A model generated the notes under the pieces. That model did no database searches. It saw only the letters and a program-made list of their open reading frames with translations, and was not told where the DNA came from. From Candidatus Eiseniibacteriota bacterium (GTDB taxonomy: Bacteria; Eisenbacteria; RBG-16-71-46), in assembly GCA_020847735.1 (NCBI GenBank), contig JADLBL010000021.1, positions 126,059-190,058 on the forward strand: a stretch of 64,000 nucleotides of DNA, in the 5' to 3' direction. Shown one piece after another: positions 10,651-41,253 of the stretch. A program made the translations under genes and the position numbers. Position 1 is the stretch's first letter; every line of letters begins with the position of its first letter.

Positions 10651-10777
10651 ACTGGCGCCCTTGTCCCCGACCCACCGAGCCGCGTGTCGTTCCGCCGATG
10701 GCTAGACAGGGCGGTAGGCGGCGGCTACACTGCTGGATTGCGCGTAACCGGTCGTCAACTGAACACGTGAGGTCGCC

Positions 10778-16634: not shown

Positions 16635-16684
16635 AGTGTCTTGCTGCCCAAGTGGTTAGGTTGAACGTGCGGGGGCAGATGTGT

Positions 16685-16713
16685 AACTTATAGTCTGTAG
16701 ACGTATGTGTGTC
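16685..16713 (+). promoter_or_regulatory. C-box operator (AACTTATAGTC-TGTA-GACgtatgtgtGTC) in MTase/C-gene divergent promoter region
   Basis: Matches the canonical C-protein operator architecture GACTnnnAGTC-TGTA-GACT...; overlaps the start region of the C gene. Confidence 0.6.
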
Positions 16714-16732
16714 AAGCACCTACCGTGCAACC

Positions 16733-16996
16733 ATGCCGCGAAGCCCCCTGCCGCGATCGGGTTCCCCTACCACCCCGCAAGTCCTTGTTGGCCACAATAT
16801 CCGCCGCCTGCGCGTTAGCGCCGGGCTGTCACAGGAATCCTTGGCTTCGCTGGCCGGACTCCACCGGACCTATCTGAGTTCCATCGAGCGGGGTGAGCGG
16901 AACCTCACTGTGGCCAACATCTACCGCATTGCCGCGGCCCTCGGCGTCGACGCCAGGGATCTCTTGGCGCCGATCGGGCGGAAGGAGACGCGGTAG
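16733..16996 (+). CDS. Controller (C) protein, XRE-family HTH transcriptional regulator
   Basis: HTH LSQESLASLAGLHRTYLSSIERGERNLTVANIYRIAAALG; about 87 aa; preceded by C-box; stop overlaps start of downstream REase gene (TAGTG). Confidence 0.75.
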   Translation: MPRSPLPRSGSPTTPQVLVGHNIRRLRVSAGLSQESLASLAGLHRTYLSSIERGERNLTVANIYRIAAALGVDARDLLAPIGRKETR

Positions 16997-18468
16997 TGGC
17001 GCTGAAGGCCAGCGAGAGCTTCATCCGCTACGTCACGATGGGCGCGGCCAGCGCTCACCGGGCCGTCGAGCTTCTCAACCAGCGCGGCCACGACGTCCGC
17101 GAGCTCGAGCGCTACGCCACCTGCAACAAGATCTGGCAGACGAAGATCAAGCGCCTGCGCATGCCGGACCTCTCTTGCCTGCGTTGCGGTCGGCGGTTCG
17201 AAGTTCGCGCGAAGACGAAGCTCGAAATCAAGATGAGCGACAGCCCGACCGTGGCCGGTCGCGAGTGGGATGCCGGGCTCCGCGACGAGGACGTGGTCAT
17301 CTTCGTGCGCTGTGACGGCCAAGCCACGCCGCCAACTCCCGCCGAGCAGATCGCTGGCTTCGAGGTGGGGCAGCTGCGGGCCTGCGTCGACCGTTCGCGG
17401 CTCGGACCTCCGAAATCAGCGGGAGAAGGGGCCGAGCGAGATCGGACATGGCCCGCGATTGTCCCTTCCTCGAGCGGCCATGTGCTGTTCGTCGGGGACG
17501 AGAAGATCTCTCTCCGGCTCGACACTGGCCGACAACAGACGTTCCAGTTGCGTCGTCGTGGGGCTGAGCTGCTGACTCCCTACGTCGGTGTCGGCGAGCG
17601 CATCCAAGGCGAGGTGCAGTTCCTAGCCGGCGCCCCGGCTCGACCAGCGTCGCTTGATTGCAGCGGCGGCGCCTGGGATCCCGTGCGCGGGCTGACCGAG
17701 AACGACACCATGAATCGCTTCTCGGCCGTCAAGGCGGCCGGACTTCTGCAGCGAGCCGATGCGGCCGACGCATTGCTTACCATCGCCCACACCGATCCCG
17801 ATCAGCGCGTTCGACTGGAAGCCGCTGGCAGCTTGCTGCGGTTGAGTCATCCGGGTGCTGCCGATGCAGTGCTGGTGCATTTCGATGCGCCCGAGCGGCC
17901 CGACCTCCGCATGGAGAGTGTGCTGCTCGTTGGCGAGGTACGCACGACGGCCGCCAAGAGCCTGCTCGAAACGATGCTGGGCCGACTAGTGGTGGGCACC
18001 GAGGAGGAGCTTCGTGCCGCGATTATCTGGTCCCTCGGCCTGTGCGGAGCCGGCGATGTGATTGTTCCGTACCTCAGCGATCCTTCCGACAGCGTGGCCG
18101 GACACGCTGCCGTCGCGCTTGGTGCACCGCTGTCCTCCTCGATTCGCGCTCGGCTGATCGCTGTTCTGGCCTCCGGCGATACGCGTGCCGTGGCCAGTGC
18201 TGCTTGGGTGCTGACCCGTGACGGAACGGACGTGGTCGGGCCGCTGTTGGAAGCCAGCCAGGATCCCACCGTGCGGGGCTGGGTCGTCTCCATTCTGGGC
18301 CGTCGCTCTCCCGCGGAGATCAGCCCGCGCCTCGAGGCGTACCCCGAGATAGGTCAACTCGTCGCTCCTTGGTGGAACCTTTGGCCAGGCAGCAACTGGT
18401 CGTCGGCTCCTGAAGGTGTGCGGGTACTGCAGGACTTGGCTCAGCAAGAGATCTTTCAGGCCATCTGA
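16996..18468 (+). CDS. Putative Type II restriction endonuclease: N-terminal PD-(D/E)XK domain + C-terminal HEAT/PBS-lyase-like repeats
   Basis: MPD...(19 aa)...LEIKM fits a PD-ExK signature; position downstream of C gene with 1-nt overlap (classic C-R operon); C-terminal repeats (AAGSLLRLSHPGAADAVL, SLGLCGAGDVIVPYLSDPSDSVAGHAAVALG) resemble HEAT repeats. Confidence 0.55.
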   Translation: MALKASESFIRYVTMGAASAHRAVELLNQRGHDVRELERYATCNKIWQTKIKRLRMPDLSCLRCGRRFEVRAKTKLEIKMSDSPTVAGREWDAGLRDEDVVIFVRCDGQATPPTPAEQIAGFEVGQLRACVDRSRLGPPKSAGEGAERDRTWPAIVPSSSGHVLFVGDEKISLRLDTGRQQTFQLRRRGAELLTPYVGVGERIQGEVQFLAGAPARPASLDCSGGAWDPVRGLTENDTMNRFSAVKAAGLLQRADAADALLTIAHTDPDQRVRLEAAGSLLRLSHPGAADAVLVHFDAPERPDLRMESVLLVGEVRTTAAKSLLETMLGRLVVGTEEELRAAIIWSLGLCGAGDVIVPYLSDPSDSVAGHAAVALGAPLSSSIRARLIAVLASGDTRAVASAAWVLTRDGTDVVGPLLEASQDPTVRGWVVSILGRRSPAEISPRLEAYPEIGQLVAPWWNLWPGSNWSSAPEGVRVLQDLAQQEIFQAI

Positions 18469-18661
18469 GCACCACCAATGCGTCTTGCTCCACGAGGCCC
18501 GTCGGCCTCGTCGACGAACTGCGGCCGTGCTATCATGCGTCCAGTATGCCATTTAGGCCGCCTCGCCCTCATCACACCACTGCTCAGTTTCCGTCTTCGA
18601 GGGTCTTGGAGTCGGCGCGCCTCGTGGGCACATGGGCATTTCTCCAAGGAGGGCGAAGTCG

Positions 18662-20110
18662 ATGAGCAGCAGCTGGTCCACCAAACGCTTCCCCGTCGCA
18701 AGCCTTCACTTGGACAAGAAGAACCCTCGGCTCGGCCGCGAGACGCTTGCGAGCGCTCCCCGCGAGATCATTCAGTACCTGTTTGACCACGACAAAGCAC
18801 TCGAGGTGGCTGACAGCATAGCGACTCGGGGGTTCTTTCCGAACGAGCCCTTGCTTGCGGTCAAAGAGGACGGTCGGCTGGTGGTCGTCGAGGGCAATCG
18901 ACGGCTTGCGGCCCTGAAGGCGCTTCGCGAACCGGGACTTCTCACCGGGTCCTCGTCTCGCCAGGTTGAACGTGTCGCTCGCAAGCTTACCGATCCGCAG
19001 TCCATCCTTACCGTGCCGGTCACGATTGCCCCCAACCGGCGCGCAACAGATCGGCAGATTGCAGGGCGACACATCGGAACGCCGGTGCTTGCGTGGCAAG
19101 CTGAGAACCGGGCGAGCTTTATTCTCGACAAGCTTGAGGAGGGGTACTCGAACGATCAGCTCAAGGACGAACTCGGCTTTACGTCCTCAGACATACAGAA
19201 CGCGCGACAGACGAGGGCGATCGCGGAGATGGCGCGGTCGCTCGAACTCTCCGACGAAGTCAAAGCCAAGCTTGAGAGTCCGAGGGCCAAGGTCTTCACC
19301 ACACTTGAACGTGTCTTCGACTCCTCCGTCGGCCGGGAGTACTTGCGCGTGCAGCCCGATCTGGATCATGGGATTCGGGGGACGACGTCAAGGTCGGAGT
19401 TCCAGCGCGCGTTCACGAGGTTGGTGACAGACGTTGCGCTTGGTAAGCAATCGTCACGCACACTCAATAGCGCCGACAACATCCGCGACTACTTTGAGTC
19501 GTGGAAGCCGGGTGAACTGCCGGCGGCAAAGCAGGGGGCCTTTGTTCCCGCAGATATCATTCAGGGTCGCTCAGTCGCTTCCTCGCCGAGACGAACCGCC
19601 GCCGCCACTCCGACGAGTCGCACGAAGCAAGTAACCCCCTATGTATTGCCGCGTGACCTGCGCGTGCGAATCAACAATCCCCGTCTGATCGACATCCGCA
19701 GCGAGCTCGTCAAGCTCGATCGGAGCAAGTTCCCCAACGCCGGGGCGGTGCTCCTGCGCGTGTTCCTCGAGCTATCGGTCACGGACTACTTGAAGCGCAC
19801 TGGCGAAATGGACTCGCTGGTCAAGAGGCTTCGGGAGATGAACGCTCTGCGGTACGGCACTCCAACGATGAAGCAAATGCTCCCGGAGATCATCCGAATC
19901 GCCAAGGCAAAGCTCCCGGCAGGAGAGGCGCTGAAGGTCGAAAAGGCACTCACCTACAACCCGGCCGCGGCATTCTCCATCAGCGAGCTCCATTCGTTCG
20001 TGCACGACACCGACGTGCCGAGCGAGCGCGATATCTGGCAGTTCTGGATGCGAACACAGGCGCTATTCAGGCTCATGCTCGAAGACGACGTAAAGAGCGC
20101 GAAGCCGTGA
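18662..20110 (+). CDS. ParB/Srx-like nuclease domain protein with uncharacterised C-terminal region
   Basis: DGRLVVVEGNRRLAALKAL matches ParB N-terminal GxRR motif; AAGGAGG RBS before ATG 18662. Confidence 0.65.
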   Translation: MSSSWSTKRFPVASLHLDKKNPRLGRETLASAPREIIQYLFDHDKALEVADSIATRGFFPNEPLLAVKEDGRLVVVEGNRRLAALKALREPGLLTGSSSRQVERVARKLTDPQSILTVPVTIAPNRRATDRQIAGRHIGTPVLAWQAENRASFILDKLEEGYSNDQLKDELGFTSSDIQNARQTRAIAEMARSLELSDEVKAKLESPRAKVFTTLERVFDSSVGREYLRVQPDLDHGIRGTTSRSEFQRAFTRLVTDVALGKQSSRTLNSADNIRDYFESWKPGELPAAKQGAFVPADIIQGRSVASSPRRTAAATPTSRTKQVTPYVLPRDLRVRINNPRLIDIRSELVKLDRSKFPNAGAVLLRVFLELSVTDYLKRTGEMDSLVKRLREMNALRYGTPTMKQMLPEIIRIAKAKLPAGEALKVEKALTYNPAAAFSISELHSFVHDTDVPSERDIWQFWMRTQALFRLMLEDDVKSAKP

Positions 20111-20964
20111 AGACGAGTAGCCCCCTACGATATCCAGGCGGCAAGTCAGCGATGGCCGGCCTCCTAGGTGGGATCCGCCGACTCAATGGTCTGGGGGCGC
20201 TATCCCTTGCCGAGCCTTTTGGCGGCGGCGCGGGTGCTTCCCTGACCCTCCTCTATCAAGAGGAAACGCCGGAGATCTTCATCAACGACGCTGACGACTC
20301 GATCCACGCATTCTGGTGGTCAGTTCTGAATCGCCCTCGCGAGTTCCAGCAGACGCTCAAGAGCACTCGCGTCAACATGACCGAGTGGCGAAGACAGCGC
20401 ATCATCTACCGACAAGCGACGCGGCAGTCCCGGCTGCGTAAGGGCTTCGCAACCTTCTACCTGAACAGATGCAACCGGTCCGGGATCATCGCGAACGGCG
20501 GTCCGATCGGTGGGATTGACCAAGCCGGACCCTGGCGACTATCGGCACGGTACAACAAGGACACGCTGCTCGATCGCTGTAAGAAGCTCGTCGAGTACCG
20601 AAGTCGCATCCATGTATCCGGCCTGGATGGTCTAGAGTTCCTATCTCGGCTCGACCAATCATCTACGATGCTGTTCATCGATCCGCCGTACTACGAGAAG
20701 GGGAGGACTCTCTACCTGAACGCGCTCAGTGACGCCTACCATGAGTCACTGGCGCAATGGCTCAAGAGTAGGAAGAACGTGGCGTGGGTCGTGACATACG
20801 ACGACTGCGACGCGATCCGTCGTCTCTATCGCGGCTGGGCTACCGTCCGGCCTTTCTCGTTGAGGTACACGGCGACGGAGCGTCGTAGCGGTCGGGAGCT
20901 ACTCATCACGCCGAAGTGGCTTCGCCTTCCGCGTAAGCAGGCATCGGAAACGATCGCTTGGTGA
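20107..20964 (+). CDS. Dam-family (D12 class) N6-adenine DNA methyltransferase
   Basis: LRYPGGK motif near N-term and IDPPYY motif IV; GTG start overlaps upstream stop (GTGA). Confidence 0.85.
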   Translation: MKTSSPLRYPGGKSAMAGLLGGIRRLNGLGALSLAEPFGGGAGASLTLLYQEETPEIFINDADDSIHAFWWSVLNRPREFQQTLKSTRVNMTEWRRQRIIYRQATRQSRLRKGFATFYLNRCNRSGIIANGGPIGGIDQAGPWRLSARYNKDTLLDRCKKLVEYRSRIHVSGLDGLEFLSRLDQSSTMLFIDPPYYEKGRTLYLNALSDAYHESLAQWLKSRKNVAWVVTYDDCDAIRRLYRGWATVRPFSLRYTATERRSGRELLITPKWLRLPRKQASETIAW

Positions 20965-21358: not shown

Positions 21359-22216
21359 ATGCGTGACAAGCCCTACTATTCCGTCAGAACAGGGAAGAAC
21401 CTCAGCGGTGGAGCGCTTGACTTGCCGACCACACTCCGCGTGTTCGGCGGCATCCACCAGACACTCGAAGATGAGGGCTACTTCCAGGAGGCCCTCGGCT
21501 ACGAGTGTGTGGACGCGGGTTCAGTTCCAGGGACTGTGGGCAAGGATGTCGAAGGCTACGTACTCCTTGAATTGCGGAAGTCGGATCTCTTGCCTGTCCG
21601 CACCCAGGTCGACCACTACCGCGAGGATGACCTCTTCGACGTGGTCGAGTTCCTCTACGAGCACGTTTCCAAGCCGGTTGATCGGCACTACCACTCCTTC
21701 AATGACTGCGGCTGGCACTGCACCTCGTTCGACCGCAGCGAGGGGCGGGCCGAGTTTCGAGAGAAGATGAATCGGATCCTCAGGCGTTACGCCGACGGTT
21801 TCGAGCTCTCGGTCGACGGGGAGGTGCTTGGACTTCCCGATGCAGGATTCGAGGCGCTCATGGAAGCTGCACTCCCGGTCGCTGACCCCGAGAACATCGA
21901 GGCGCGTGTGGACGCGGCGCGCAGAAGGTTCCGCCGATACAAGGCGTCGCTGGATGAGCGACGTGACGCAATCCGAGACCTCGCCGACGTACTCGAGTAC
22001 TTGCGACCGAAGCTGAAGGGTATTCTCGCCTCAAGGGACGAGAATGATCTGTTCAACCTCGCAAACAACTTCGGCGTGCGCCACCACAATGCCCTGCAGA
22101 AGGTCGGGTACGACCGTGCCATCTGGTACAGTTGGCTCTTCTACTACTACCTCGCCACGATCCACGCTGTTGTGAGGCTCATTCGGAAGAAAGAGGAAAC
22201 GGACGGCAGGGTGTAG
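21359..22216 (+). CDS. Hypothetical protein (possible abortive-infection-like)
   Basis: 285-aa ORF in defence context; no motif I can confidently assign. Confidence 0.45.
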   Translation: MRDKPYYSVRTGKNLSGGALDLPTTLRVFGGIHQTLEDEGYFQEALGYECVDAGSVPGTVGKDVEGYVLLELRKSDLLPVRTQVDHYREDDLFDVVEFLYEHVSKPVDRHYHSFNDCGWHCTSFDRSEGRAEFREKMNRILRRYADGFELSVDGEVLGLPDAGFEALMEAALPVADPENIEARVDAARRRFRRYKASLDERRDAIRDLADVLEYLRPKLKGILASRDENDLFNLANNFGVRHHNALQKVGYDRAIWYSWLFYYYLATIHAVVRLIRKKEETDGRV

Positions 22217-22250: not shown

Positions 22251-24749
22251 CTATAGTGCTTCAACTGCCGCGAGGAGCCGCTTCACCTCATCATGGTAGT
22301 AGGCGACGTCTTCGGAGATCGGGCACATCAGATGGAATGTCCCCGTATTGTGCAAACCACCAAGCCGACTGATTCCTGAATGCAGGTCTTGCAGCGCATC
22401 GATCAGCTCGGGTGGCACGGTCCGGATCTTCTTCAGCCCAGCCCAATCGGTGTGGAGAGCTTCGGGATCGAAGAGCGTCCGCACGCCATGCAGGATGCGC
22501 TTGTCGATCAAGACCTCAATCGCACGCCGGGTCAGGAGAAAGCATAGCTCGACCGAATGCTGGTCCAGCGAGCCTGTTCCCAGCATCGCTTGAACGCGAT
22601 CGAGCAGGTCATTCGCGGTGTCCTTCACGGAGTAAGGGGACACGATGCCGGAGGTGCCCTTGAACGACTCCACCATGTAGTACATAGGGCCACGGCCCGC
22701 CATGCCCCTGAACTGCGGGTGGTTCTTGGCGGCTTCGACCAGGCACTGGAAGACATGCTTGTTGTGTGTAAACACAATCACCTGACGGTATTCGGTCTCA
22801 TCGAGGACCCTATCGGCGACTTGCGCAATGCGCTCCGTGTCCATGCTGCTGAAGGGATCATCGACGAGGAGCACCTCACCCGTGCCACGGTGAGAAAGTT
22901 CGGACAAGCAATCAGCGAGCGCCCAGGTAGCAAGTTCGCTCTCGCTGAGGGTCTTGCGAGGTTCTCGCCCATGGACCGCGTAGCGCCTCTCCGTCACGCC
23001 CGATGGCGAGGCGGCTTTGAGCCGGAGAGGAAGACGCAGGCGGAGGCGTGAACACTCTGAATCGAAGCGTTCCCTGAAGGCAGCGAGGCCAAGGGCATTC
23101 ATTGCCTCGGTCCTCGCGGTACTCCAGCCGCGTTTCTGAGTTTCCACCTCCGCCAGGGCTGTGCGAACGGATTCTAGGATCGCCTTCAGCCCCGAAAGTT
23201 GAACGAGCTTCTCCGTGTTCTCCTTTGCGAAGCACCGACGCTCGGCCGTCGTTAATAACGGCGCCAGCTTCGCTCGGGCCGCAGAACGCGATTCAGGTGT
23301 GGCAAGTGAGGCCAGGGTCTGGCGCTCGCCCTCGAGTTCTCGGGCTACGTCAGCTTTGCTGGAGTCAATGCGTTCACGAGATGGAAGCTCATTTGGCCAC
23401 GTTGCTTCCTCGATGAGTGCAGGATCTAGCCCAAGGCGGTCAGACAATGAGCGAAGGGCCCCATGCGCTTCGTCGATCTGGGTTGCCAGGGCTGACATGC
23501 GCGTGGTGCGAGCGCCACCGACCTCCTGTCGAACACTCTTCAAGAACGCGACCGCCGCCTCGGAGAGACTCTGGCCGCAGTAGATGCAGCTGTCTGAGCC
23601 GCTTGGGTAGTCTGCCGACCGCTCCGCGGTGATGACGGACTCGCCTGCCACAACGAGGGCCCGCCACGCCGAGGTGTCCTTGAGTTCAAGCGGCCGCGCA
23701 TCGAGCAATCCGCGAAGGCCCGCCCGTTCAGCCTGCCTGAGGTCGTCCAACTCCTTCGATGCTGCCGTGAGAGCCGCACCGCTGTGCGTCTCATCGCCAA
23801 GCAGCGCCAAGGACTTCGATTCGGCTTCGAGTTCCATGATGCGCTTTCGCGCAGTGGTAGCAGACGCCTCGGCCTGATCGAGGCGGGTTAGCTGTTGTTT
23901 GAGTTCGTCCCGCTGCTTTGCGAGTGCCAGCGCATCCACGGTCGCGACGTCTCCGATGTCGGCGACAGCAGCTTCTGCTCGTGGCACGTCCTCAAGATCG
24001 AACAGCGCGTCGCGTCCAGCCGTGGCGGCTGTTCGGACTGCAGCGAGGCCGCCTTCAAATGATCGTAGTGCAGCCGTTCCGACATCGAATAGGTCCAGCC
24101 CCAAGTGCTGGGGGGCCTCAAGCGTGAGCTGCACGCCGTACTTGTCGACGGTATCCTTATCGAAGAGTCGAAGTGCTACGGGTGTCGCTGGGGCAGCATC
24201 CGATGACCATGAGGCGTCGTCGCCGCCTGCGAAGTTGATTGGATTCGCGCGCACGTCAGCGAGCCGGCAGATGCGGAACTTCGCCTGACGAGTCAAGGCG
24301 AAGCGGTCCTGCTTCGGATCTTCGTTTGCGCGGCCGGGAACGTCGCCATGCTCGATGGCGCTGCCAAGGACGGCCATTGCGCTGGCGAGGCTGGACTTTC
24401 CGGAGCCGTTCCTGCCGTAGAAGACGGTCAGCCAGGGCGAGAGGGGAATCGCCTCCGGGTAGTCGCCGAGGGCGCGGATGTTGTCGCATGCGACGATCTG
24501 GAGGATGCAGTTCGGCGCGCCGCTGGGAACAGCAGTCGAGGGTCTGGTCGTGCTGACAGGCGAAAGCGTTGGCTGTGCAAGCCCGAGCTTCGCCAATGGC
24601 ACAGTCGCGCACCAATGGTCAAATGCCTTCTGGTGTGCAGGTGCGCCGTCTCGCACAGCGTCTGCGAGCACGGCTGGCCAGGTGCCATTCTTCGTCTTGG
24701 GGATGTAGTCCTTGGCCTCTTTGTTGGGTTGTGGCGCGTCAACTGTCAT
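22251..24749 (-). CDS. RloC-like ABC/SMC-type ATPase with coiled-coil zinc hook (candidate anticodon-nuclease/defence ATPase)
   Basis: Walker A FYGRNGSGKSSL; long coiled coil with CIYCGQ CxxC hook; Walker B/D-loop VLLVDDPFSSMD; H-loop VIVFTHN; about 150-aa C-terminal extra domain; start at MTVDAPQ (24749). Confidence 0.55.
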   Translation of the reverse strand: MTVDAPQPNKEAKDYIPKTKNGTWPAVLADAVRDGAPAHQKAFDHWCATVPLAKLGLAQPTLSPVSTTRPSTAVPSGAPNCILQIVACDNIRALGDYPEAIPLSPWLTVFYGRNGSGKSSLASAMAVLGSAIEHGDVPGRANEDPKQDRFALTRQAKFRICRLADVRANPINFAGGDDASWSSDAAPATPVALRLFDKDTVDKYGVQLTLEAPQHLGLDLFDVGTAALRSFEGGLAAVRTAATAGRDALFDLEDVPRAEAAVADIGDVATVDALALAKQRDELKQQLTRLDQAEASATTARKRIMELEAESKSLALLGDETHSGAALTAASKELDDLRQAERAGLRGLLDARPLELKDTSAWRALVVAGESVITAERSADYPSGSDSCIYCGQSLSEAAVAFLKSVRQEVGGARTTRMSALATQIDEAHGALRSLSDRLGLDPALIEEATWPNELPSRERIDSSKADVARELEGERQTLASLATPESRSAARAKLAPLLTTAERRCFAKENTEKLVQLSGLKAILESVRTALAEVETQKRGWSTARTEAMNALGLAAFRERFDSECSRLRLRLPLRLKAASPSGVTERRYAVHGREPRKTLSESELATWALADCLSELSHRGTGEVLLVDDPFSSMDTERIAQVADRVLDETEYRQVIVFTHNKHVFQCLVEAAKNHPQFRGMAGRGPMYYMVESFKGTSGIVSPYSVKDTANDLLDRVQAMLGTGSLDQHSVELCFLLTRRAIEVLIDKRILHGVRTLFDPEALHTDWAGLKKIRTVPPELIDALQDLHSGISRLGGLHNTGTFHLMCPISEDVAYYHDEVKRLLAAVEAL

Positions 24750-24891
24750 GCTGGAAGCACACCACCAATCGTCTCGTCTGTCCAGAGGCGCTGTCGTTCG
24801 GGAAGCTCGAGGAATCCGCGTGAGGCAATCGCCACTCACGGGCCTGAGCTCGTCGCCGGAGAGACTGCCGCTATAGCGCTAGTCCGTCTCC

Positions 24892-26547
24892 CTATCCAAC
24901 TTCCGCGCATCGTGGCACAATAGCCTTCTCGCGGCTTCTCCTCGCCCACCGGGTGAGCGTCCCGGTCCTCCGTAGCTTCTCTTCCGTCGGGTCGATCTCC
25001 GCGAAGATCGGCGGAATCTGGAAGTCGTGCGCCTCGATCCAAGTTCGCAATCGCTCCACCACGGTGCACCAAGAGCGAGTGAGTCCTGCGTTCTCGAAGA
25101 ACGACCAGGGTTCGTTCGCTTTGTAGAGCGCTTTTCGGTCCCGGACGGTCGGGTTCGCGCAGATGGCGTGGAAGATCTGCCGGCGGCGAACCGCGTCCCC
25201 TTCCCGGAAGGCCTGCAGGAGCGAAGCGCTGAAGTTCAGCGCGCCTTCGACGCGCTTCAGGAGTTGCTCCGGCGTCGGGGCGGGCTGGTCGAGCCGGAGG
25301 CGCAGCGTGGCCTGACGGTCCAGCAAGCCGAGGCGCCGGCGCTCAAACGTCGCGTCATCGACCTGACCGCGGAGCTTCAGGGTCAGGAGCGCGTCGGATT
25401 CCCGGACCGCATCGGCAAGGGATTTCTCCATCTCGCTGCGCTGGGCGGTGCGTTCATTGATCGTGGCGTCGAGCTTGGGTCGGATGTTGTCCTTGATCCA
25501 GTCGAGTGCAGCCGGCGGGAGCGTCAGCCGCCGCAGGTCGGCTTCCAACTGTCGCTCGAGTGCGGCTTCCGGCAGGCACGGGTTCGGGCACGGTTCCCCA
25601 CCCGTGCGTCCCCGGCAGCGGTAGTAGACGAAGCGCCTCCCCGAGCGCTTGACGTGCTCTTCCGGATTGAGCTTTCGACCACACAGGCCGCAGGTGAGCA
25701 GGCCCGCGTACGCGAAGACGTGGTGGACGAAGTGCGTCCGGGTCGGGCGGCCGAGGATCGCCTGCGCCTGTTCGAACTCCTCGGGCGTCACCATCGGCGG
25801 GTGAGCTCCGCGGTACGCCTCCCCGTTCCTCAACCGAATCAGGCCCATGTAGTAAGGGTTGGCGAAGAGCTTGAAGACCGCCTGGAAGCAGAGCGGCTTA
25901 CCGCCGAGGCGAGCGGTCTTGCGAGTGCGGAGGCCGTGATCCTCGGCCCAGCGGGCGATCTCCATCGGGTTCATCCGGCGGGAGAGGAGCCGATCCCACA
26001 TCTCGCGGACGATCGGGAACCGGTCCGGGTCCTTCACGACCACCGTCGTCGACTTGGAGCGGTCCTCGCGGTAGCCGATCGGCGGGCGGAAGTTGGGCCA
26101 GCCCTGCTGGAAGCGGGCTCGGTTGCCGCGCCGGACGTTCGCGCGGAGGTCATCGATGAACTTGGTCGCGATGCCAAGCTCGAAGTTTCCGAGGAAGCGG
26201 TCGTTCCCATCGGCGGTGTACTCGCGCTCGGGAGTGATGACGCGCGTGAGCTTGCCGTCGGCTAGCGCCTGAAGGACGGTGCCGTGGTCGAAGTGGTTCC
26301 GGGCGAGGCGGTCCATCTTCCAGCACAGCACGCCCGCGATCTCGCCCTTCAGGACCCGCTTCATGAGCGAGCCGAAGATGGGCCGACCGGGCGCCTTGGC
26401 CGAGCGGGCCTCGGTCAGGACTTCCCGGACATCGAGCCCGCGGCGCAGCGCCAGGACCTGGAGTTCCTGGACCTGAGAGTCGATCGAGAGGACTTGGCGG
26501 TCGTCAGACTCCGTGGACTTGCGGGCGTAGATGACGTGGGTGGACAT
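24892..26547 (-). CDS. Large serine recombinase (resolvase/invertase N-terminal catalytic domain + recombinase + zinc-ribbon domains)
   Basis: IYARKSTESDDRQVLSIDSQ catalytic-Ser motif; central recombinase domain; CGLCGRK...YYRCRGR zinc ribbon. Confidence 0.85.
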   Translation of the reverse strand: MSTHVIYARKSTESDDRQVLSIDSQVQELQVLALRRGLDVREVLTEARSAKAPGRPIFGSLMKRVLKGEIAGVLCWKMDRLARNHFDHGTVLQALADGKLTRVITPEREYTADGNDRFLGNFELGIATKFIDDLRANVRRGNRARFQQGWPNFRPPIGYREDRSKSTTVVVKDPDRFPIVREMWDRLLSRRMNPMEIARWAEDHGLRTRKTARLGGKPLCFQAVFKLFANPYYMGLIRLRNGEAYRGAHPPMVTPEEFEQAQAILGRPTRTHFVHHVFAYAGLLTCGLCGRKLNPEEHVKRSGRRFVYYRCRGRTGGEPCPNPCLPEAALERQLEADLRRLTLPPAALDWIKDNIRPKLDATINERTAQRSEMEKSLADAVRESDALLTLKLRGQVDDATFERRRLGLLDRQATLRLRLDQPAPTPEQLLKRVEGALNFSASLLQAFREGDAVRRRQIFHAICANPTVRDRKALYKANEPWSFFENAGLTRSWCTVVERLRTWIEAHDFQIPPIFAEIDPTEEKLRRTGTLTRWARRSREKAIVPRCAEVG

Positions 26548-26594
26548 GTGGCGGTGAGGTTGCCATTCAGCAATTCCTCAAGACGGCGCTCCGG

Positions 26595-26879
26595 TCAAGA
26601 GCGAGGATGCGCGAACTCTGCGAACGACTCGCCGGCCGCCGGCATCGCGCCGTGTCCCTGCAGGAGCATCTCGACGAGCGCGAGCAGGGCGATTGCGCGG
26701 CCCCATGCTTCGGGCAGCGACAGGCTGACGCCGCATTCGCGCTCGAGAATCGTCTGGAAGCGGCGCACCTCGGCTTCGCTCAGGCCGGCGCCAAAACGCC
26801 TGACCAGGGGCGGTTCAGGTGCGTGATCGAAGGCGACGGAATCGGCCATGCCCTCAGCATGGCCGCTTGATCGCCCCAT
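26595..26879 (-). CDS. Small hypothetical protein adjacent to recombinase
   Basis: 94-aa ORF; no motifs; could be RDF/excisionase-like but unsupported. Confidence 0.3.
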   Translation of the reverse strand: MGRSSGHAEGMADSVAFDHAPEPPLVRRFGAGLSEAEVRRFQTILERECGVSLSLPEAWGRAIALLALVEMLLQGHGAMPAAGESFAEFAHPRS

Positions 26880-26980
26880 GTGCAGGGGGTGGGAAGCACG
26901 GAACCACGGCAGCCCTGTGGACGGGCGCGCACGTCTCCCGACCGCCTGGGCATCGTCGCCGGAGCGTGTACGGTCTGAAC

Positions 26981-27322
26981 ATGCTGTCGGAGGCGCAGGC
27001 GCGTGAAGTCGAAGCCGTGCTCCGCGAGTTCTGTCGCGGCGAGCCGCCGCCCCACGTACGGCCGGAACTCGAGTACGCCGTGCGCATCGAGGGCAACGCT
27101 GTGACGCTCGTCGAGCTGCGTTCGGCCTTCCGTGCCGAGATCGACCGCACCGAGTCTCCGGTGGCGAGATTCCGCTTCATAGCCAAGTACGAGCTCTGGC
27201 AACTCTACTACCGGGACCGAAACATCCGGTGGCATCGCTACCCTCCGGCGAGGCCCGTGAAGCGACTCGCCGTACTGTTCGCCGAAGTCCGCCGCGATCC
27301 GACCGGGATCTTCTGGGGGTAG
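26981..27322 (+). CDS. Hypothetical protein
   Basis: ORF from MLSEAQAREV; no recognisable motif. Confidence 0.4.
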   Translation: MLSEAQAREVEAVLREFCRGEPPPHVRPELEYAVRIEGNAVTLVELRSAFRAEIDRTESPVARFRFIAKYELWQLYYRDRNIRWHRYPPARPVKRLAVLFAEVRRDPTGIFWG

Positions 27323-27456
27323 CAGGCGGGTATGAAGACGAGTCGGCCGTTCGCACCGGGATCGACCATGCGGCTTGGACGGAATCACAAGTCGCGGTAG
27401 GGTAGGGCCTCAGGCAGAAGGTCCTCGCATTCTCGTGCTGGGTCCCTACCCGGAGG

Positions 27457-28092
27457 TTGGCCGTGAAGCTCTATGCAGCGGTCCTCGCCTCGATCATGCT
27501 GACCTCGGCCGCTGCGCATGCCGTCCCGATGCCGCAGCCCACGCCTATGAGCCGGACGGTCTTCACGGGCTCGGCAGCGGTCGAAGCGCTCAGCTCGACG
27601 TACTACGAGGTGAGCATCGACTCGGACCGAATGACCTCGCCCACGCTCTCCGGTCGGTTGACGGCCATGGGCGGCTCGGGCAATGACATCGTCGTGCTGG
27701 TCATGTCGGATGCGGACTTCATGAACTGGAAGAACGGGCATGAGGTCCGACCCCTCTTCAACTCCGGGCAGGTGACGGTGGCCGATCTTGATGTGGCCTT
27801 GCCCGGTCCGGGAAGCTACCGGTTGGTGTTGTCGAATCTGTTCTCCTCCATGACCCCGAAGACTGTGTCCGGGCAGGTGCGTTTGCGCTGGGTGCAGGCC
27901 CCTTCGCCGGAGGAGGTCGCGGCCGCCAAGGCGGCCAACAAGGCGGAGCTTGAACGGGCGCAGCGGGATGAATCGAACACGTTGCTCATCGGGCTGCTGG
28001 TGGTGCTCGTGCTCGGCGGCCTCATCGGCGGGCTGATCGTCTGGATGGTGGCCGCTCGGAAGACTCAGCACCCCGCTCCGCCGCAGCAGTGA
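27457..28092 (+). CDS. Secreted protein with C-terminal transmembrane anchor
   Basis: Signal peptide AVLASIMLTSAAAHA; C-terminal hydrophobic LLIGLLVVLVLGGLIGGLIVWMV; GGAGG RBS upstream of GTG start. Confidence 0.55.
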   Translation: MAVKLYAAVLASIMLTSAAAHAVPMPQPTPMSRTVFTGSAAVEALSSTYYEVSIDSDRMTSPTLSGRLTAMGGSGNDIVVLVMSDADFMNWKNGHEVRPLFNSGQVTVADLDVALPGPGSYRLVLSNLFSSMTPKTVSGQVRLRWVQAPSPEEVAAAKAANKAELERAQRDESNTLLIGLLVVLVLGGLIGGLIVWMVAARKTQHPAPPQQ

Positions 28093-28173
28093 TCGCGGGG
28101 CCGGGCAAGGAGGTGTCGCAGTCGCCAAAGGTGATCTGGCAGCTCTGAACAGCCGGGAGAGGAGGCGAAAAGA

Positions 28174-28395
28174 GTGAGCACGCAGGGAGCGAAACAGGGA
28201 GCGAGCAAGACACCCGCACGGGCGAAGACGGTGGCAGGGAAGCGTACGCCGGCGAAGTAGCGAAACATGAAGCCCCGGAAGCAAACCTCGCCCGCCGAGC
28301 GTCAGCGGCTCCTCGCCGTCGCTCCGCGCGAAGGCCTCATCGCCCTCGGCGTCTAGGAGCGCTTCGGCGTCAAGCCTGTGACGTGCTACTCGTGA
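28174..28395 (+). pseudogene. Degraded copy of the KA-rich HTH gene found intact at 34736-35212
   Basis: Translation gives ...AERQRLLAVAPREGLIALGV*ERFGVKPVTCYS* versus intact ERQRILATAEREGLTALQVQKRFGVKPVTYYSW; three in-frame stops. Confidence 0.55.
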
Positions 28396-28677
28396 CGGAA
28401 GGTGAGCAAGAGGTCGGCGCGGAGCACTGCGTCCGTGCTCGCGGGCGGCATGGGCGACCAAGCTCGCGCAAGCGTGCAATCACGCGTGTTCACACCCCCA
28501 ATCGCAATCGTCCGCTAGGAGGTCGCAACCTGCCTCGATGTCGTTCTGTCGGCCCATTCCCTACGTCGTCGTGCCCGGGCACTCCGTCGCGTCGCCAGAA
28601 GATGAGCCCATCACCGCAACTTCGGACCCTTGGGCAAAGGAAGTGGGGAGAGTGAGCGGCCCCATCAGATCGGGTGA

Positions 28678-30921
28678 GTGCTGATGGAACTACTTGTTCT
28701 GCTCGGCGTCGCTTCTGCAGCCTGGTTCGTCGCGATGGTCGTTCGCGAGTCTCGGCGTGGCAATGCGGAGGATGACCTGGAAGCCACGCCGCGTGAGCAT
28801 GCGGTCGAGCTCGCTGCCACGGGCTCGCGGCTTGCTCCGGCCGCCCCTGCGCGGGTCCGCAAACCGGCCCGCTGGATCCCGGCGGGGATCTCGACAGAAG
28901 TTCAGGGCTATCTCCTGCCCGGCGGACTCGTGTACGTCGGTGAGGACCTGCAGCAGGTCAGTGGATATGGACTCGAACCTGCGCTCGTTGACCCGACGCG
29001 TCCGGTCGATCGCGCAGCTCCGGATCGTATCGGCGCGGGCATGCCGTACTGGCCGACCTATGACGGACTCACGCCGCAATCCCGGGCGGCATTCCTGGAG
29101 TGGCTAGCAGGCGGACGCCGTGTCCCGGACTTCGGTATCGGATATGTCTTCCTGTTCTTCTATGGACTCGAACGACGAGTACTGCTCGATGCCTCGCGGT
29201 CCGATGAGGCGAAGGTCGATCTGCCGGCGATCCGACAGGAAGTGGCTGAACTTCTCGCGGTCTACGGCTCCAACCGTTCGTTCGAGCGCTATGCCGCCCA
29301 GCTCCTCAATGTGCTGGACGTGACCCTGGCCGGCGACCGGGAACTTGCGCCGCCGACCGCCGGACGAAGCTACGAGATGCCACTCTCGCTCCGTGTCGGT
29401 CTCGGCAGGATCATCGCCGCCGAGCGACCCATCCCGGCGAGGTGGGCGCTAGCCTGGTTGCTGCATCACCCGGAGGCCGTCCTGCGGACGCCGTCGCGGC
29501 GGTGCGCCGCCGAGTTCCAGGCGCTCTTCGCTGCCCGCTACGCCCACGAGTTCGGAGCCGGATTGATCGTCAAGGTGCCCCGATCGAAACTCGTGGCGAG
29601 CGTGCAACCGGCCAGCGCTTCCTTCGGTGGACCGATCACCATCGCGTTCGATCTCCCGGACATTGCGCGTCTCGACTCACCGCTGAGCAAGCTCCGGAAG
29701 CTGGGCGAGGCCTGCGAAGCTGACCTTGAAGCATACAGCCGTTGGGTTGGCCGCAATCCTGACGCGCCGAAGACCCTGGCCGCCGTGGCGCTCCTGCCGG
29801 CGGAACTGGTGGCAACCCACGATGGCGCCGAGGCGCGGGAGCTGTGGCGGTGGATTGGGGATCTGCTAGCGGGAACTCCGGTTGGCTTCTGCGACGGCAG
29901 AGACTTGCTTGAGCGGTGCGCATCGCTGTGGGGCGAGAAGCTCGCCAAGGCCGAGGCCGTGCTGCTGGCGCAGCTCCTACAGAAGGGAGGATACGGCCTC
30001 GAGCCGGACGTCCGATTCGGCGGCAGTGTCCTCGCCGCAGGCGACCACGTCGCGCTGTTCCAACTCGAGCCCGACGCACCGGCCGCACCGAGCGCCGGAT
30101 ACGCCGCCGCGACCATCCTGCTGCAACTCGCGGTCGCCGTCTCGGCCTCCGACGGATCGATCTCCGAACACGAACGCGATCAGCTCGAAACGCATGTTGA
30201 GCAGAGCCTGGCGCTCACTGATGCCGAACGGCGACGGCTGTCCGTCCACCTCGCCTGGCTGATGCGTTCTGATCCGCGACTGACTGGCCTCAAGAAGCGG
30301 CTCGAAACATTGGACGCTGGGCAGCGCGCTCTCGTCGCCGACTTTGTGGTCAGCATCGCTGGGGCAGACGATCGGATCGCGCCAGCCGAGGTGAAGACCA
30401 TCGGGAAGATTTTCGCGTTGCTAGGGATTCCCGAGGAGGAGGTCTACGCGCGTCTGCATTCGGTGACGACCGAGGGGCCGCGGTCGGAACCGCTGCCTGT
30501 CGTGCTGCCAGGTGCACTGAGCAGAGGGTTTGCAGTTCCGCCGCCTCCCGCACCAAGGAGTGGGCTCGCCCTGGACATGGACGCCGTGGCGGCGAAGATC
30601 GCCCAGTCCGCTTCGGTGGCAGCGGTCTTGAGTGAGATCTTCACCGATGATGCGGCCAGCTCGGCCCCGATACCCCAGGCTGATTCGACCTCGCCGAGTG
30701 GCCTCTCACCAGCGTACACTGCGCTGCTTGTGGCGCTTATTCAGCGGAACACGTGGAGCCGCGACGAGTTCGAAGGTCTGGCTGGGCAACATCAGCTGTT
30801 GCCGGATGCGGCCGTCGAGGTGCTCAACGATGCCGCTTTCGAGCGGTGCGGCAGCGCGCTCATCGAGGGGGATGACCCGCTCGAACTCGACCTGAGCGTG
30901 GCGAAGGAGTGCTTGGCGTGA
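28678..30921 (+). CDS. Large TerB-domain-containing protein (TerB-N/TerB/TerB-C-like architecture), N-terminal TM helix
   Basis: TerB-like acidic motifs VSASDGSISEHERDQLETHV and IAGADDRIAPAEVKTIGKIF; N-terminal hydrophobic helix; first gene of a 3-gene same-strand module. Confidence 0.5.
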   Translation: MLMELLVLLGVASAAWFVAMVVRESRRGNAEDDLEATPREHAVELAATGSRLAPAAPARVRKPARWIPAGISTEVQGYLLPGGLVYVGEDLQQVSGYGLEPALVDPTRPVDRAAPDRIGAGMPYWPTYDGLTPQSRAAFLEWLAGGRRVPDFGIGYVFLFFYGLERRVLLDASRSDEAKVDLPAIRQEVAELLAVYGSNRSFERYAAQLLNVLDVTLAGDRELAPPTAGRSYEMPLSLRVGLGRIIAAERPIPARWALAWLLHHPEAVLRTPSRRCAAEFQALFAARYAHEFGAGLIVKVPRSKLVASVQPASASFGGPITIAFDLPDIARLDSPLSKLRKLGEACEADLEAYSRWVGRNPDAPKTLAAVALLPAELVATHDGAEARELWRWIGDLLAGTPVGFCDGRDLLERCASLWGEKLAKAEAVLLAQLLQKGGYGLEPDVRFGGSVLAAGDHVALFQLEPDAPAAPSAGYAAATILLQLAVAVSASDGSISEHERDQLETHVEQSLALTDAERRRLSVHLAWLMRSDPRLTGLKKRLETLDAGQRALVADFVVSIAGADDRIAPAEVKTIGKIFALLGIPEEEVYARLHSVTTEGPRSEPLPVVLPGALSRGFAVPPPPAPRSGLALDMDAVAAKIAQSASVAAVLSEIFTDDAASSAPIPQADSTSPSGLSPAYTALLVALIQRNTWSRDEFEGLAGQHQLLPDAAVEVLNDAAFERCGSALIEGDDPLELDLSVAKECLA

Positions 30922-35224: not shown

Positions 35225-36100
35225 GTGTCGACAGACAAGTTGAATTTGGCCAGCGTGGACGGTTGGGATTCGACACCCGTCGAGTCTGCTGAAGCACTGC
35301 TTTCCGCACTACTCGAACTTCGCGGAAGGCGCTGGCTGTTCCGAGGGCAGTCGCGACCGCACGGCACCATCTTCCCCTCGATCGACCGCTGCCCGATGGA
35401 GAAGTTCGAGCGCGTCCAGAAGCTCGCTCTCGAGCGTCAGAGCATCGACACCTTCCGCTCCGCCGCGAAGGTGTTCGGCCACCCCGGAGAAGAAGTCGCG
35501 CGCGTGGACGACATCATTGCCCTCGCGGTCCTGCGTCACTACGGCACCCGCACGCGGCTGCTCGACTGGTCGCGATCACCCCACGTCGCTGCGTTCTTCG
35601 CGGCATGCTCGAACCTGGATGCTGACGGCGAGGTTTGGGCGTTCGATGAACCTCTTTACGAACCCGAAGGGCATAAACAGTGGCAGAAGTGGCCAGAGTG
35701 CACGGTCGACGGTGACGGGCAGACGTTCCAGGCACACCTCACCGCGTTTCTCGCGGAGGAGCCGCCCGACTGGTTCATCTGCGTTTTCTACGATCACCTG
35801 TTGGCACCACAGCTCAACGCTTTCCCACGGCAGGTTGCCCAAAGCGGTGCCTATTCCATGACCGCGCGCTTCGGCCAGGACCACGCAGTCCACATCGCCC
35901 GACTTCTCGGCGACGACTCTCACTGCAAGCGGTTCGTGCTACCAGCCCAGCAAAAGCCGGATGTGTTGCGCCAGCTACTCGAAAAGCACGGGATCTGGCG
36001 CGGGGCTTTGTATCCCGATGCTGCCGGAGCTGCCGAGACCGCAGGTGCACTATTCCCGCGCTGCCCGACCATGTGCGCACCCCACGAGCGGAAGCAGTAA
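35225..36100 (+). CDS. FRG domain-containing protein
   Basis: RWLFRGQS motif characteristic of FRG domain; GTG start. Confidence 0.6.
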   Translation: MSTDKLNLASVDGWDSTPVESAEALLSALLELRGRRWLFRGQSRPHGTIFPSIDRCPMEKFERVQKLALERQSIDTFRSAAKVFGHPGEEVARVDDIIALAVLRHYGTRTRLLDWSRSPHVAAFFAACSNLDADGEVWAFDEPLYEPEGHKQWQKWPECTVDGDGQTFQAHLTAFLAEEPPDWFICVFYDHLLAPQLNAFPRQVAQSGAYSMTARFGQDHAVHIARLLGDDSHCKRFVLPAQQKPDVLRQLLEKHGIWRGALYPDAAGAAETAGALFPRCPTMCAPHERKQ

Positions 36101-36134
36101 TCCGTCCCGTGGACGGAGGACCGAGGCCTGACCA

Positions 36135-40584: not shown

Positions 40585-40702
40585 TCCGGCTGGCAACTGG
40601 CGCGTCAGGCTTGCCCCGGCGCCACCGCTCCCGGCCGTCGTTCCCGAGCAAGGGGAGACGGCGGGCGGCCCTCGGGAGGGCCTTCGATTCCCTCACCCGT
40701 CA

Positions 40703-41221: not shown

Positions 41222-41253
41222 CCTCGCTCGATCCGCCGACATAGGAGGCCAGA

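What the first reader, a model, noticed from the sequence alone, without database searches (positions are those of the whole stretch)
22251..24749. RloC-like zinc-hook ABC ATPase next to R-M and recombinase
Walker A (GRNGSGKSS) and Walker B/D-loop (LLVDDPFSSMD) are separated by about 500 aa of coiled coil containing a CxxC (CIYCGQ) hook, and are followed by a roughly 150-aa C-terminal domain. This matches the RloC/PrrC-type anticodon-nuclease layout, which is classically linked to R-M loci, though Rad50/SbcC-like ATPases are also possible.
Basis: partly seen in the sequence, partly recalled or inferred. Interest (0 to 1): 0.55.

Follow-up and report, generated by a model that had tools for sequence, protein, structure and literature searches.

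The report
RloC-like zinc-hook ATPase with HEPN RNase
This gene encodes a Rad50-like ATPase with a zinc-hook coiled coil fused to a predicted RNA-cutting (HEPN) domain, a rare and divergent relative of the known anti-phage tRNA nuclease RloC, carried as cargo in a prophage-like defence island.

Summary

The protein matches PADLOC candidate family PDC-S06, which overlaps DefenseFinder's RloC. PDC-S06 splits into a short form (about 720-760 aa, PrrC-like nuclease) and a long form (about 850 aa). This protein is a rare, divergent branch of the long form. About ten relatives were found in 15 billion proteins, and none in 185,579 species genomes. Full-length profiles of the two forms align colinearly (99.7%). 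The nuclease domain alone is not significantly similar to the short form or to PrrC.

It is a stand-alone gene beside a serine integrase and is not in an operon with the nearby R-M-like genes. tRNA cleavage is inferred, not shown. Verdict: new member of a known kind, of modest interest.

The parts
22251..24749 (-). Whole gene, 832 aa plus stop: long-form RloC-like ABC ATPase-HEPN protein
   Evidence: dN/dS 0.14; GC3 0.70 against about 0.9 for host core genes
24513..24749 (-). N-terminal extension (res 1-79): small helical region with invariant W24, then a Pro-rich linker; function unknown
   Evidence: AF2 helices 24-34 and 38-49; W24 invariant in 61 sequences; no Pfam match. Absent from short-form proteins, where the Walker A Lys is at 36-38, and from GkaRloC (K44; PMC3458546)
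24390..24416 (-). Walker A / P-loop GRNGSGKSS (res 112-120)
   Evidence: G112, N114, G117 and K118 invariant
23697..24095 (-). Ascending helical arm (res 219-351)
   Evidence: AF2 secondary structure, pLDDT mostly 80-89; Foldseek matches to SMC/Rad50 coiled coils
23571..23588 (-). Zinc-hook motif CIYCGQ (C388, C391) at the predicted apex
   Evidence: C388 and C391 are 100% conserved in 141 sequences; aligns with CPFCQ of short-form proteins
23043..23561 (-). Descending helical arm (res 397-569)
   Evidence: periodicity
22935..22949 (-). ABC signature LSESE (res 601-605)
22839..22871 (-). Walker B and D-loop LLVDDPFSSMD (res 627-637)
   Evidence: Pfam AAA_13 match over res 594-677
22764..22766 (-). 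Switch (linchpin) His H662 in FTHN
   Evidence: invariant; aligns with LTHN of short-form proteins
22254..22694 (-). C-terminal domain (res 686-832): beta-hairpin plus helical bundle with HEPN fold
22515..22529 (-). RRAIE: R741-x3-E745, predicted catalytic Arg/Glu on the long helix 730-752
   Evidence: R741 96% and E745 99% conserved; invariant in A2 and A3; aligns with MRNILE of short-form proteins
22350..22367 (-). RLGGLH: R795-x4-H800, HEPN Rx4-6H motif
   Evidence: H800 96% and R795 62% conserved; invariant within the narrow clade
24892..26547 (-). Context: large serine recombinase (integrase) immediately upstream on the same strand; not a functional partner
   Evidence: Pfam Resolvase + Recombinase + Zn_ribbon_recom. 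Same pairing in L003 and L006-L009 but absent from L001, L002 and L040

Best explanation
The gene encodes a single-protein, RloC-type abortive-infection or superinfection-exclusion nuclease. A Rad50/SMC-like ABC ATPase head (res about 80-218 and 570-685) is split by an antiparallel coiled coil capped by a CxxC zinc hook. A C-terminal HEPN RNase domain follows, with R741, E745, R795 and H800 as the predicted active site. By analogy with Geobacillus RloC, the protein should dimerise through its ATPase heads and zinc hooks and keep the RNase silent. Binding of DNA ends or other aberrant (phage) DNA, together with ATP hydrolysis, would then switch the RNase on. The RNase would cut cellular RNA, most likely tRNA anticodon loops, and stop translation in the infected cell. 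The architecture, motif conservation, HEPN fold, defence-island and prophage context, and stand-alone status are shown here. Dimerisation, the DNA trigger, the RNA target and the anti-phage effect are inferred. The ~79-aa N-terminal extension typical of the long-form subfamily has no assigned role; it may be an extra sensor or regulatory module.
Confidence: 0.6

Rival explanations
1. Same architecture, different target. The HEPN domain is an RNase controlled by the ATPase/zinc-hook switch, but it cuts mRNA, rRNA or phage transcripts rather than tRNA anticodon loops. Alternatively, it responds to a trigger other than DNA ends, for example through the N-terminal extension.
For: HEPN RNases have many targets (mRNA, rRNA, tRNA; bioRxiv 10.64898/2026.02.22.705581; PMC3710099). 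The nuclease domain is not detectably PrrC-like in sequence. Its best structural matches are classical MNT-associated HEPN toxins and LsoA, an mRNase. The N-terminal extension is absent from characterised RloC.
Against: The only characterised proteins with this overall layout (RloC, and PrrC without the hook) are anticodon nucleases. The full-length alignment with short-form RloC-like proteins is colinear.
Confidence: 0.2
2. It is one component of a multi-gene system. It might work with the serine recombinase, with the neighbouring 285-aa AbiJ-NTD-like gene, or with R-M-like genes, as PrrC is held silent by its Hsd partner.
For: The recombinase is the upstream neighbour in three related elements. 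In L001 the homologue follows an SNF2 helicase, a DUF1156 methylase and a 1096-aa gene on the same strand with a 23-nt gap. PrrC is regulated by EcoprrI.
Against: Neighbours differ in every independent context: window/L006, L003, L001, L002 and L040. The 285-aa gene is convergent and absent from L003. The recombinase pairing is seen only among closely related elements (82-98% identity). PADLOC models the family as a single-gene candidate.
Confidence: 0.1
3. It is a Rad50/SbcC/LmuB-like DNA-processing or DNA-repair ATPase, and its C-terminal helical bundle is a non-catalytic protein- or nucleic-acid-binding module.
For: The best PDB sequence and fold matches are Rad50/SMC. There are weak PADLOC LmuB and PHROG SbcC-like matches. 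Some HEPN domains are non-catalytic.
Against: No SbcD/Mre11, LmuA or LmuC gene is nearby. R741, E745 and H800 are the most conserved residues of the domain, which fits a catalytic site rather than a scaffold. The gene has foreign codon composition and lies in a defence island.
Confidence: 0.05

Closest known systems
RloC (Geobacillus kaustophilus RloC, 804 aa; Davidov & Kaufmann 2008, Klaiman et al. 2012)
   Same: The order of parts is the same: Walker A, coiled coil with CxxC zinc hook, signature/Walker B/switch His, then a C-terminal nuclease domain with R-x3-E ... H. Distances are similar. Walker A to hook is 270 aa here against 247 in GkaRloC. Walker B to Arg is 111 against 120. Both are single-gene systems, rarely in cis with R-M.
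   Different: This protein has about 74 extra N-terminal residues (K118 against K44). E-to-H spacing is 54 against 40. The motif is Rx4H with no Ser before His and no Asn at R+3. The tail after His is shorter (32 against 67 aa). The nuclease domain is not alignable by HMM to PrrC-type domains. No GkaRloC sequence was available for a direct comparison.
Short-form RloC-like ATPase of the E. coli APEC O1 P2-like prophage (NC_008563.1 925932-928148, WP_000423308.1, 738 aa), probably APECO1_4465 / 'E. coli APECO1 RloC', and its plasmid homologues
   Same: Colinear full-length profile alignment (Prob 99.7%, E 1e-26), including CxxC, ABC motifs, and the R-x3-E and R.. motifs. Both are PADLOC PDC-S06. 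Both are prophage cargo genes.
   Different: Different PDC-S06 sub-models: 04886/90/94/96/97 for the short form, 04888/91/92/93 for the long form. The short form matches the PrrC model through its nuclease domain and has MRNILE + R..N..SH, whereas this protein does not. That this protein is APECO1_4465 is my inference from its position in the genome and its prophage context.
PADLOC candidate system PDC-S06, long-form sub-models PDLC04888/04891/04892/04893 (about 850 aa)
   Same: Best library match (E 2e-36 to 3e-29). Shares the N-terminal extension with W24, the CxxC, the ATPase motifs and the C-terminal R/E/H.
   Different: Only about 17-22% identity to typical members and partial model coverage (against full-length E 0 for P0014). 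The narrow clade has its own signatures: LSPWLTVFYGRNGSGKSS, a TVPP insertion, and SRLGGLHNTG. PDC-S06 is an unpublished candidate with no tested function.
PrrC anticodon nuclease (E. coli)
   Same: ABC ATPase followed by a C-terminal HEPN-type RNase with an Arg-Glu ... Arg-His constellation.
   Different: PrrC has no coiled-coil/zinc-hook insert, is about 400 aa, and is always embedded in a type Ic hsd locus. The PADLOC PrrC model matches only res 626-680 here.
Rad50 / SbcC / SMC-like defence ATPases (LmuB of Lamassu, JetC of Wadjet)
   Same: ATPase head split by an antiparallel coiled coil, with a CxxC hook as in Rad50, SbcC and LmuB.
   Different: Those proteins lack a fused C-terminal HEPN domain and work with separate nuclease or kleisin partners. 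No such partner is encoded nearby.

Membership tests
RloC (sensu Davidov & Kaufmann 2008) | ABC ATPase motifs: Walker A, signature, Walker B/D-loop, switch His | tested here: met
   GRNGSGKSS, LSESE, LLVDDPFSSMD and H662, all invariant in 61 family members
RloC (sensu Davidov & Kaufmann 2008) | Coiled-coil insert with a central CxxC zinc hook inside the ATPase domain | tested here: met
   AF2 helices 219-351 and 397-569 flank C388/C391. The CxxC is 100% conserved. SMC/Rad50 fold matches. Zinc binding itself was not tested.
RloC (sensu Davidov & Kaufmann 2008) | C-terminal Arg-x3-Glu-x36-52-His triad, with Ser often preceding His | tested here: inconclusive
   R741-x3-E745 and H800 are present and are the most conserved residues. 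The spacing is 54, two beyond the published range; the long-form family mode is 50 or 52 and short forms have 36-40. Leu, not Ser, precedes His.
RloC (sensu Davidov & Kaufmann 2008) | Nuclease domain homologous in sequence to the PrrC ACNase domain | tested here: inconclusive
   The PADLOC PrrC model and the short-form models do not match the C-terminal domain. C-terminal-only hhalign P is 0.0076, but the score of 21 compares with 18 for unrelated helical blocks. The motifs align in order within the full-length alignment.
RloC (sensu Davidov & Kaufmann 2008) | Full-length homology to recognised RloC-like proteins | tested here: met
   hhalign of the long-form family against 11 short-form proteins gives Prob 99.7%, E 1e-26, 650 columns. 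The short-form reference itself matches PrrC through its nuclease domain. A direct comparison with GkaRloC was not possible.
RloC (sensu Davidov & Kaufmann 2008) | Wobble-nucleotide-excising tRNase activity switched on by DNA and ATP | not testable with these tools
   Needs biochemistry (PMC2610378, PMC3458546)
PADLOC PDC-S06 | Significant match to a PDC-S06 HMM as a single gene | tested here: met
   PDLC04888 at E 2e-36, 04892 at 7e-30, 04893 at 3e-29, 04891 at 8e-26. Coverage is partial, res about 420-804. The C-terminal domain alone matches 04892 at E 4e-11.
HEPN superfamily | All-alpha four-helix core fold | tested here: met
HEPN superfamily | Rx4-6H catalytic motif plus a conserved acidic residue on an earlier helix | tested here: met
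   R795-LGGL-H800 and E745. H is 96% and E 99% conserved; R is 62% conserved across the long-form family.
PrrC | About 400-aa ABC ATPase without a coiled-coil insert, embedded in a type Ic hsd locus | tested here: not met
   832 aa with a 350-aa helical insert. No hsd genes are adjacent.
Rad50/SbcC DNA-repair ATPase | Adjacent Mre11/SbcD nuclease gene and no extra C-terminal enzymatic domain | tested here: not met
   No metallophosphatase gene within about 10 kb on either side. An additional HEPN domain is present.
Lamassu LmuB | Operon with LmuA effector (and LmuC) | tested here: not met
   Only weak LmuB sub-model hits (E 2e-11). The neighbours carry no LmuA or LmuC matches.

The most novel reading that the evidence does not exclude
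The long-form proteins (about 850 aa, PDC-S06 sub-models 04888/91-93), and this rare clade in particular, may not be RloC orthologues. They may be a separate ABC-zinc-hook-HEPN family. In that reading the conserved N-terminal W24 module is a dedicated sensor for a phage protein or nucleic acid, and the Rx4H HEPN domain, with its Gly-rich SRLGGLHNTG loop, has a substrate or cleavage chemistry different from wobble-nucleotide excision.
Probability: 0.2. Interest if true: 0.5.

Novelty: new member of a known kind. Interest (0 to 1): 0.3.

Why it matters
RloC is one of the few defence proteins proposed to couple sensing of DNA damage or DNA ends by a Rad50-like machine directly to shutdown of translation. 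No structure of RloC turned up in the PDB sequence searches or the paper searches made here, and only short-form or canonical proteins have been tested. This analysis shows that the PADLOC family PDC-S06 contains two forms that share the sensor but have strongly diverged nuclease domains. It places the window protein on a rare branch of the untested long form, which carries an extra N-terminal module. That gives concrete mutants (K118, C388/C391, R741, E745, R795, H800, deletion of residues 1-79) for testing whether the long form uses the same switch and the same RNA target. In itself the finding is an expected type of cargo gene in a prophage defence hotspot.

Tried and rejected
1. Pfam, NCBIfam and PDB sequence searches of the whole protein, the C-terminal 161/147 aa and the N-terminal 100 aa found nothing beyond ABC ATPase motifs.

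2. The search for homologous proteins with the protein, a C-terminal alignment and a 61-sequence alignment returned only 8-23 hits and no informative names. The word index seems tied to the first sequence.

3. The afdb50 fold library was unavailable, so models of GkaRloC or EcoPrrC could not be compared.

4. The genome-contig scan with the narrow-clade alignment found only generic P-loop matches in Actinomycetes. It found no clade member and did not identify the source organism.

5. tblastn against phage records gave no match for the target. The integrase has only 22-26%-identical phage relatives.

6. I tested whether the N-terminal extension could be the HEPN/Toprim-NTD1 of the ERFG_01251-type ABC-HEPN proteins. 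There is no Pfam support, so the question is left open.

7. I searched two 50-kb stretches of E. coli APEC O1 without success before finding the prophage gene in a third.

8. The supplement of the HEPN paper held no alignments.

9. DARNA (PD-T7-3) was checked as a possible relative and rejected because its architecture is unrelated.

10. The ORFs 26780-27388(-) and 27385-28479(-), which I first took as genes, have poorer codon-position GC than the + strand ORFs 26284-28092. Gene calls there are uncertain.
Full report
**1. Observation**

The - strand ORF 22251..24839 most likely starts at the ATG at 24749 and encodes 832 aa. The closest homologues start at the same Met.
- GRNGSGKSS, res 112-120
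- CIYCGQ, res 388-393
- LLVDDPFSSMD, res 627-637

An ABC signature (LSESE, res 601-605) and a switch His (H662) are also present. The gene is real. Against the 82%-identical gene in L003, dS is 0.75 and dN is 0.10, giving dN/dS 0.14. Its GC3 of 0.70 is far below that of host core genes in the window (about 0.9) and below the adjacent recombinase (0.86). This marks it as acquired cargo.

**2. Anatomy**

An AlphaFold2 model of the whole protein (7-sequence alignment, pLDDT 70) shows the following:
- a short helical N-terminal region (helices 24-34 and 38-49) and a low-confidence Pro-rich linker up to about res 79
- an ATPase N-lobe
- two long helical arms (res 219-351 and 397-569) meeting at the CxxC
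- the ATPase C-lobe
- a beta-hairpin (res 689-705) followed by a helical bundle (res 712-831)

Foldseek against the PDB returns Smc, Rad50, JetC, MukB, cohesin, RecN and LmuB heads with coiled coils at E 2e-7 to 1e-3. A simple 3.5-residue periodicity test is only modestly positive for the arms. The coiled-coil call therefore rests mainly on the model and these fold matches.

**3. The family**

Pfam gives AAA_13 over res 594-677 only. PADLOC gives PDC-S06 (PDLC04888, E 2e-36) and only motif-level hits to PrrC, LmuB and AriA. NCBIfam and PDB sequence searches add only Rad50/AriA ATPase matches.

The word-index search found six close relatives of 832-834 aa, or 783 aa for one truncated sequence, at 98-40% identity. 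The exhaustive HMMER search of 1.84 billion representatives found:
- a narrow clade (P0004, P0005, then P0009/P0010 at 26-28% identity)
- a large family of proteins of about 850-870 aa (1853 hits below 1e-10)

One more clade member (L040) came from metagenomes. None was found in 185,579 species-representative genomes. Two long-form members lie on IMG/VR viral contigs.

In a MAFFT alignment of 141 full-length members, the best-conserved positions are:
- the P-loop
- C388 and C391 (100%)
- the signature, Walker B/D-loop and Q656/T661/H662
- W24 in the N-terminal extension (96%)
- G701, R741 (96%), E745 (99%) and H800 (96%) in the C-terminal domain; R795 is at 62%

**4. The C-terminal domain**

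No Pfam family matches it, even at E up to 10. PADLOC matches it only with the long-form PDC-S06 sub-models. A 27-sequence alignment (A2) has just four invariant columns: G701, R741, E745 and H800. AlphaFold2 on A2 gives a confident model (pLDDT 85.9, pTM 0.78).

- 3mfn (uncharacterised protein)
- AF0298 HEPN (2hsb)
- LsoA (5hy3)
- Csx1-Crn2 (8y7f)
- sacsin HEPN (3o10)
- HepT-type toxin (5yep)

The motif R795-LGGL-H800 is a HEPN Rx4-6H motif. R741-x3-E745 lies on the preceding long helix. This pair corresponds to the essential PrrC residues R320/(N321)/E324 and R349/(N352)/H356, which are conserved in RloC (PMC3025547; PMC2610378). The PrrC and RloC nuclease domains were assigned to the HEPN superfamily by Anantharaman et al. 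(PMC3710099).

**5. Relation to RloC proper**

The supplement of PMC11811056 lists the same B. cereus proteins as RloC (DefenseFinder) and PDC-S06 (PADLOC). To obtain a reference sequence, I located a 738-aa 'AAA family ATPase' in the P2-like prophage of E. coli APEC O1 (NC_008563.1 925932-928148). This is probably the APECO1_4465 / 'E. coli APECO1 RloC' of the literature. That identification is an inference from its genomic position and prophage context.

This protein has K36, CPFC at 254, MRNILE and RYINRGSH. It matches the short PDC-S06 sub-models over its full length (PDLC04886, E 1e-254). It also matches the PADLOC PrrC model over res 490-730, which includes the nuclease domain (E 1e-12).

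Typical long-form proteins (P0014, P0165) match sub-models 04888/91/92/93 over their full length. They match the short-form and PrrC models only in the ATPase motifs. PDC-S06 therefore contains two groups:

| Feature | Group A (short form) | Group B (long form) |
|---|---|---|
| Length | 718-757 aa | about 850 aa |
| Walker A Lys | 36-38 | about 119 |
| N-terminal extension | absent | present |
| Nuclease motifs | MR[NR]I.E ... N..SH | LR..CE ... R....HS |
| E-to-H spacing | 36-40 | 48-54 (window protein: 54) |

The group A figures come from ten plasmid homologues plus the APEC O1 protein. The published RloC range of 36-52 suggests that the original RloC set already spanned both groups. This is an inference.

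Profile-profile alignment of group B (141 sequences) against group A (11 sequences) is colinear over 650 columns at Prob 99.7%, E 1e-26. It pairs CiyC.Q with CPFCQ, the signatures, Walker B, THN, LR...E with MR.I.E, and the Arg of the Rx4H motif with the Arg of R..N..SH. The His is offset by two residues.

The C-terminal domains alone give P 0.0076 and probability 5%. The score of 21.1 exceeds all 30 column shuffles (at most 13.5) and the reversed profile (12.3). It is scarcely above unrelated coiled-coil blocks (about 18). Homology of the nuclease domains is therefore plausible from position, fold and motif order, but it is not proven by sequence.

**6. Context**

The gene lies in a region of lower G+C, about 10-38 kb, that is dense in defence genes:
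- SIR2-TPR (8199-9812)
- radical SAM plus a cyclase-like gene (10778-13940)
- a PglX-like methylase (14904-16634)
- a HEAT-repeat protein (16996-18468)
- PD-Lambda-5 A/B (18632-20964)
- an AbiJ-NTD4/PDC-S32-like gene (21359-22216)
- the target (22251-24749)
- a large serine recombinase (24892-26547)
- Shango SngABC (28678-34473)
- FRG/PDC-S15, Ea47-like and DUF5677 genes (35225-38281)

These assignments come (Ea47). RuvC-like resolvases and a YqaJ-like exonuclease follow, so the element looks like a prophage.

L006 carries a 98%-identical copy of the target gene (P0001) with the same flanking genes but lacks the block between the recombinase and the FRG gene (Shango plus a few small ORFs, roughly 26.6-35 kb). 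L003 (82%) keeps the recombinase-target pair but has different cargo beyond it, a LexA-like repressor and CBASS. More distant clade members sit in other contexts:
- L001: after an SNF2 helicase, a DUF1156 methylase and a 1096-aa gene
- L002: beside unknown genes and a HEPN_AbiV gene
- L040: beside a metallophosphatase and a trypsin-like gene

No neighbour is conserved, so the gene is a stand-alone module. In the window it is convergent with the 285-aa gene and separated by it from the R-M-like genes. 'Next to R-M' is therefore true only at island scale.

**7. Mechanism**

The following are shown here: the architecture, conserved catalytic-type residues, HEPN fold, defence and prophage context, and stand-alone status.

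The following is inferred from GkaRloC (PMC2610378, PMC3458546). ATPase-head dimers have their zinc hooks joined, which silences the RNase. Binding of DNA ends plus ATP hydrolysis releases the RNase. Cleavage of tRNA anticodon loops then arrests translation (abortive infection, or exclusion of superinfecting phages by the prophage).

The RNA target, the trigger and the role of the N-terminal extension are open.

**8. Verdict**

The protein works like an RloC on present evidence. It belongs to the RloC-like/PDC-S06 superfamily as a rare, divergent long-form member. Strict membership of the PrrC/RloC nuclease family remains unproven. It is a new member of a known kind, of modest interest.

Noticed in passing
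window 28678-34473 (+): Complete Shango system: SngA (TerB_N/TerB/TerB_C, E 5e-86), SngB (BrxC/D-like ATPase, E 7e-182) and SngC (DEAD helicase, E 3e-265). This block, with the small ORFs at about 26.3-28.1 kb, is absent from L006, which carries a 98%-identical copy of the target gene and the same flanking genes. It looks like a recent insertion between the integrase and the FRG gene.
   Followed up: partly
window 18632-20964 (+): PD-Lambda-5-like pair: a 492-aa protein (PD-Lambda-5_A, E 1e-46, weak ParB-like N-terminus) overlapping a Dam-type methyltransferase (PD-Lambda-5_B, E 2e-93).
   Followed up: partly
window 21359-22216 (+): A 285-aa gene convergent with the target (34-nt gap). It has weak matches to AbiJ N-terminal domain 4 (E 1e-3) and to PADLOC PDC-S32 (E 1e-8). 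It is present in L006-L009 but not L003.
   Followed up: partly
window 14904-18468: A 576-aa N6/N4 methylase (PglX-like, E 1e-78; MTase_II, E 3e-109) lies divergent from a 490-aa HEAT-repeat protein. L006 has a small HTH gene between them. This may be an uncharacterised methylase-associated defence module.
   Followed up: no
window 8199-13940: A SIR2_2-TPR protein (537 aa, - strand) is followed by a radical-SAM protein (414 aa; weak PDC-M51A match) overlapping a 642-aa protein with weak squalene-hopene-cyclase-like repeats. These are unusual neighbours at the edge of the island.
   Followed up: no
window 35225-38281 and 39913-45726: FRG-domain protein (PDC-S15), lambda Ea47-like protein and DUF5677 protein, then two adjacent RuvC-like resolvase ORFs (39913-40584 and 40703-41221) and a YqaJ-like exonuclease. 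The two RuvC-like ORFs may be a duplication or a split gene. Together these indicate a prophage early region.
   Followed up: partly
window about 24865-24895 (- strand): An imperfect inverted repeat (GAGACGGACT...GCAGTCTC) lies immediately after the recombinase stop codon, in the 142-nt gap upstream of the target. It could be a terminator or a regulatory hairpin. It was not picked up by the terminator scan, which requires a T-run.
   Followed up: no
L001 1-7978: In the metagenomic contig carrying P0005, the homologue is the last gene of a same-strand array: HTH-SNF2 helicase-NOV_C, a DUF1156 methylase and a 1096-aa protein with no Pfam match. This is a DISARM/MADS-like context reminiscent of R-M-linked RloC/PrrC.
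   Followed up: partly
L058 25932-28148 (E. coli APEC O1, NC_008563.1 925932-928148): The short-form RloC-like gene occupies the P2 prophage cargo hotspot between the replication gene A and the portal gene Q. A second cargo gene (Sll1717-family P-loop ATPase) lies after the tail-fibre genes.
   Followed up: partly
L062 1-228 (Klebsiella quasipneumoniae plasmid NZ_CP147547.1): A gene annotated 'HEPN family nuclease' lies divergently next to a short-form RloC-like ATPase.
   Followed up: no
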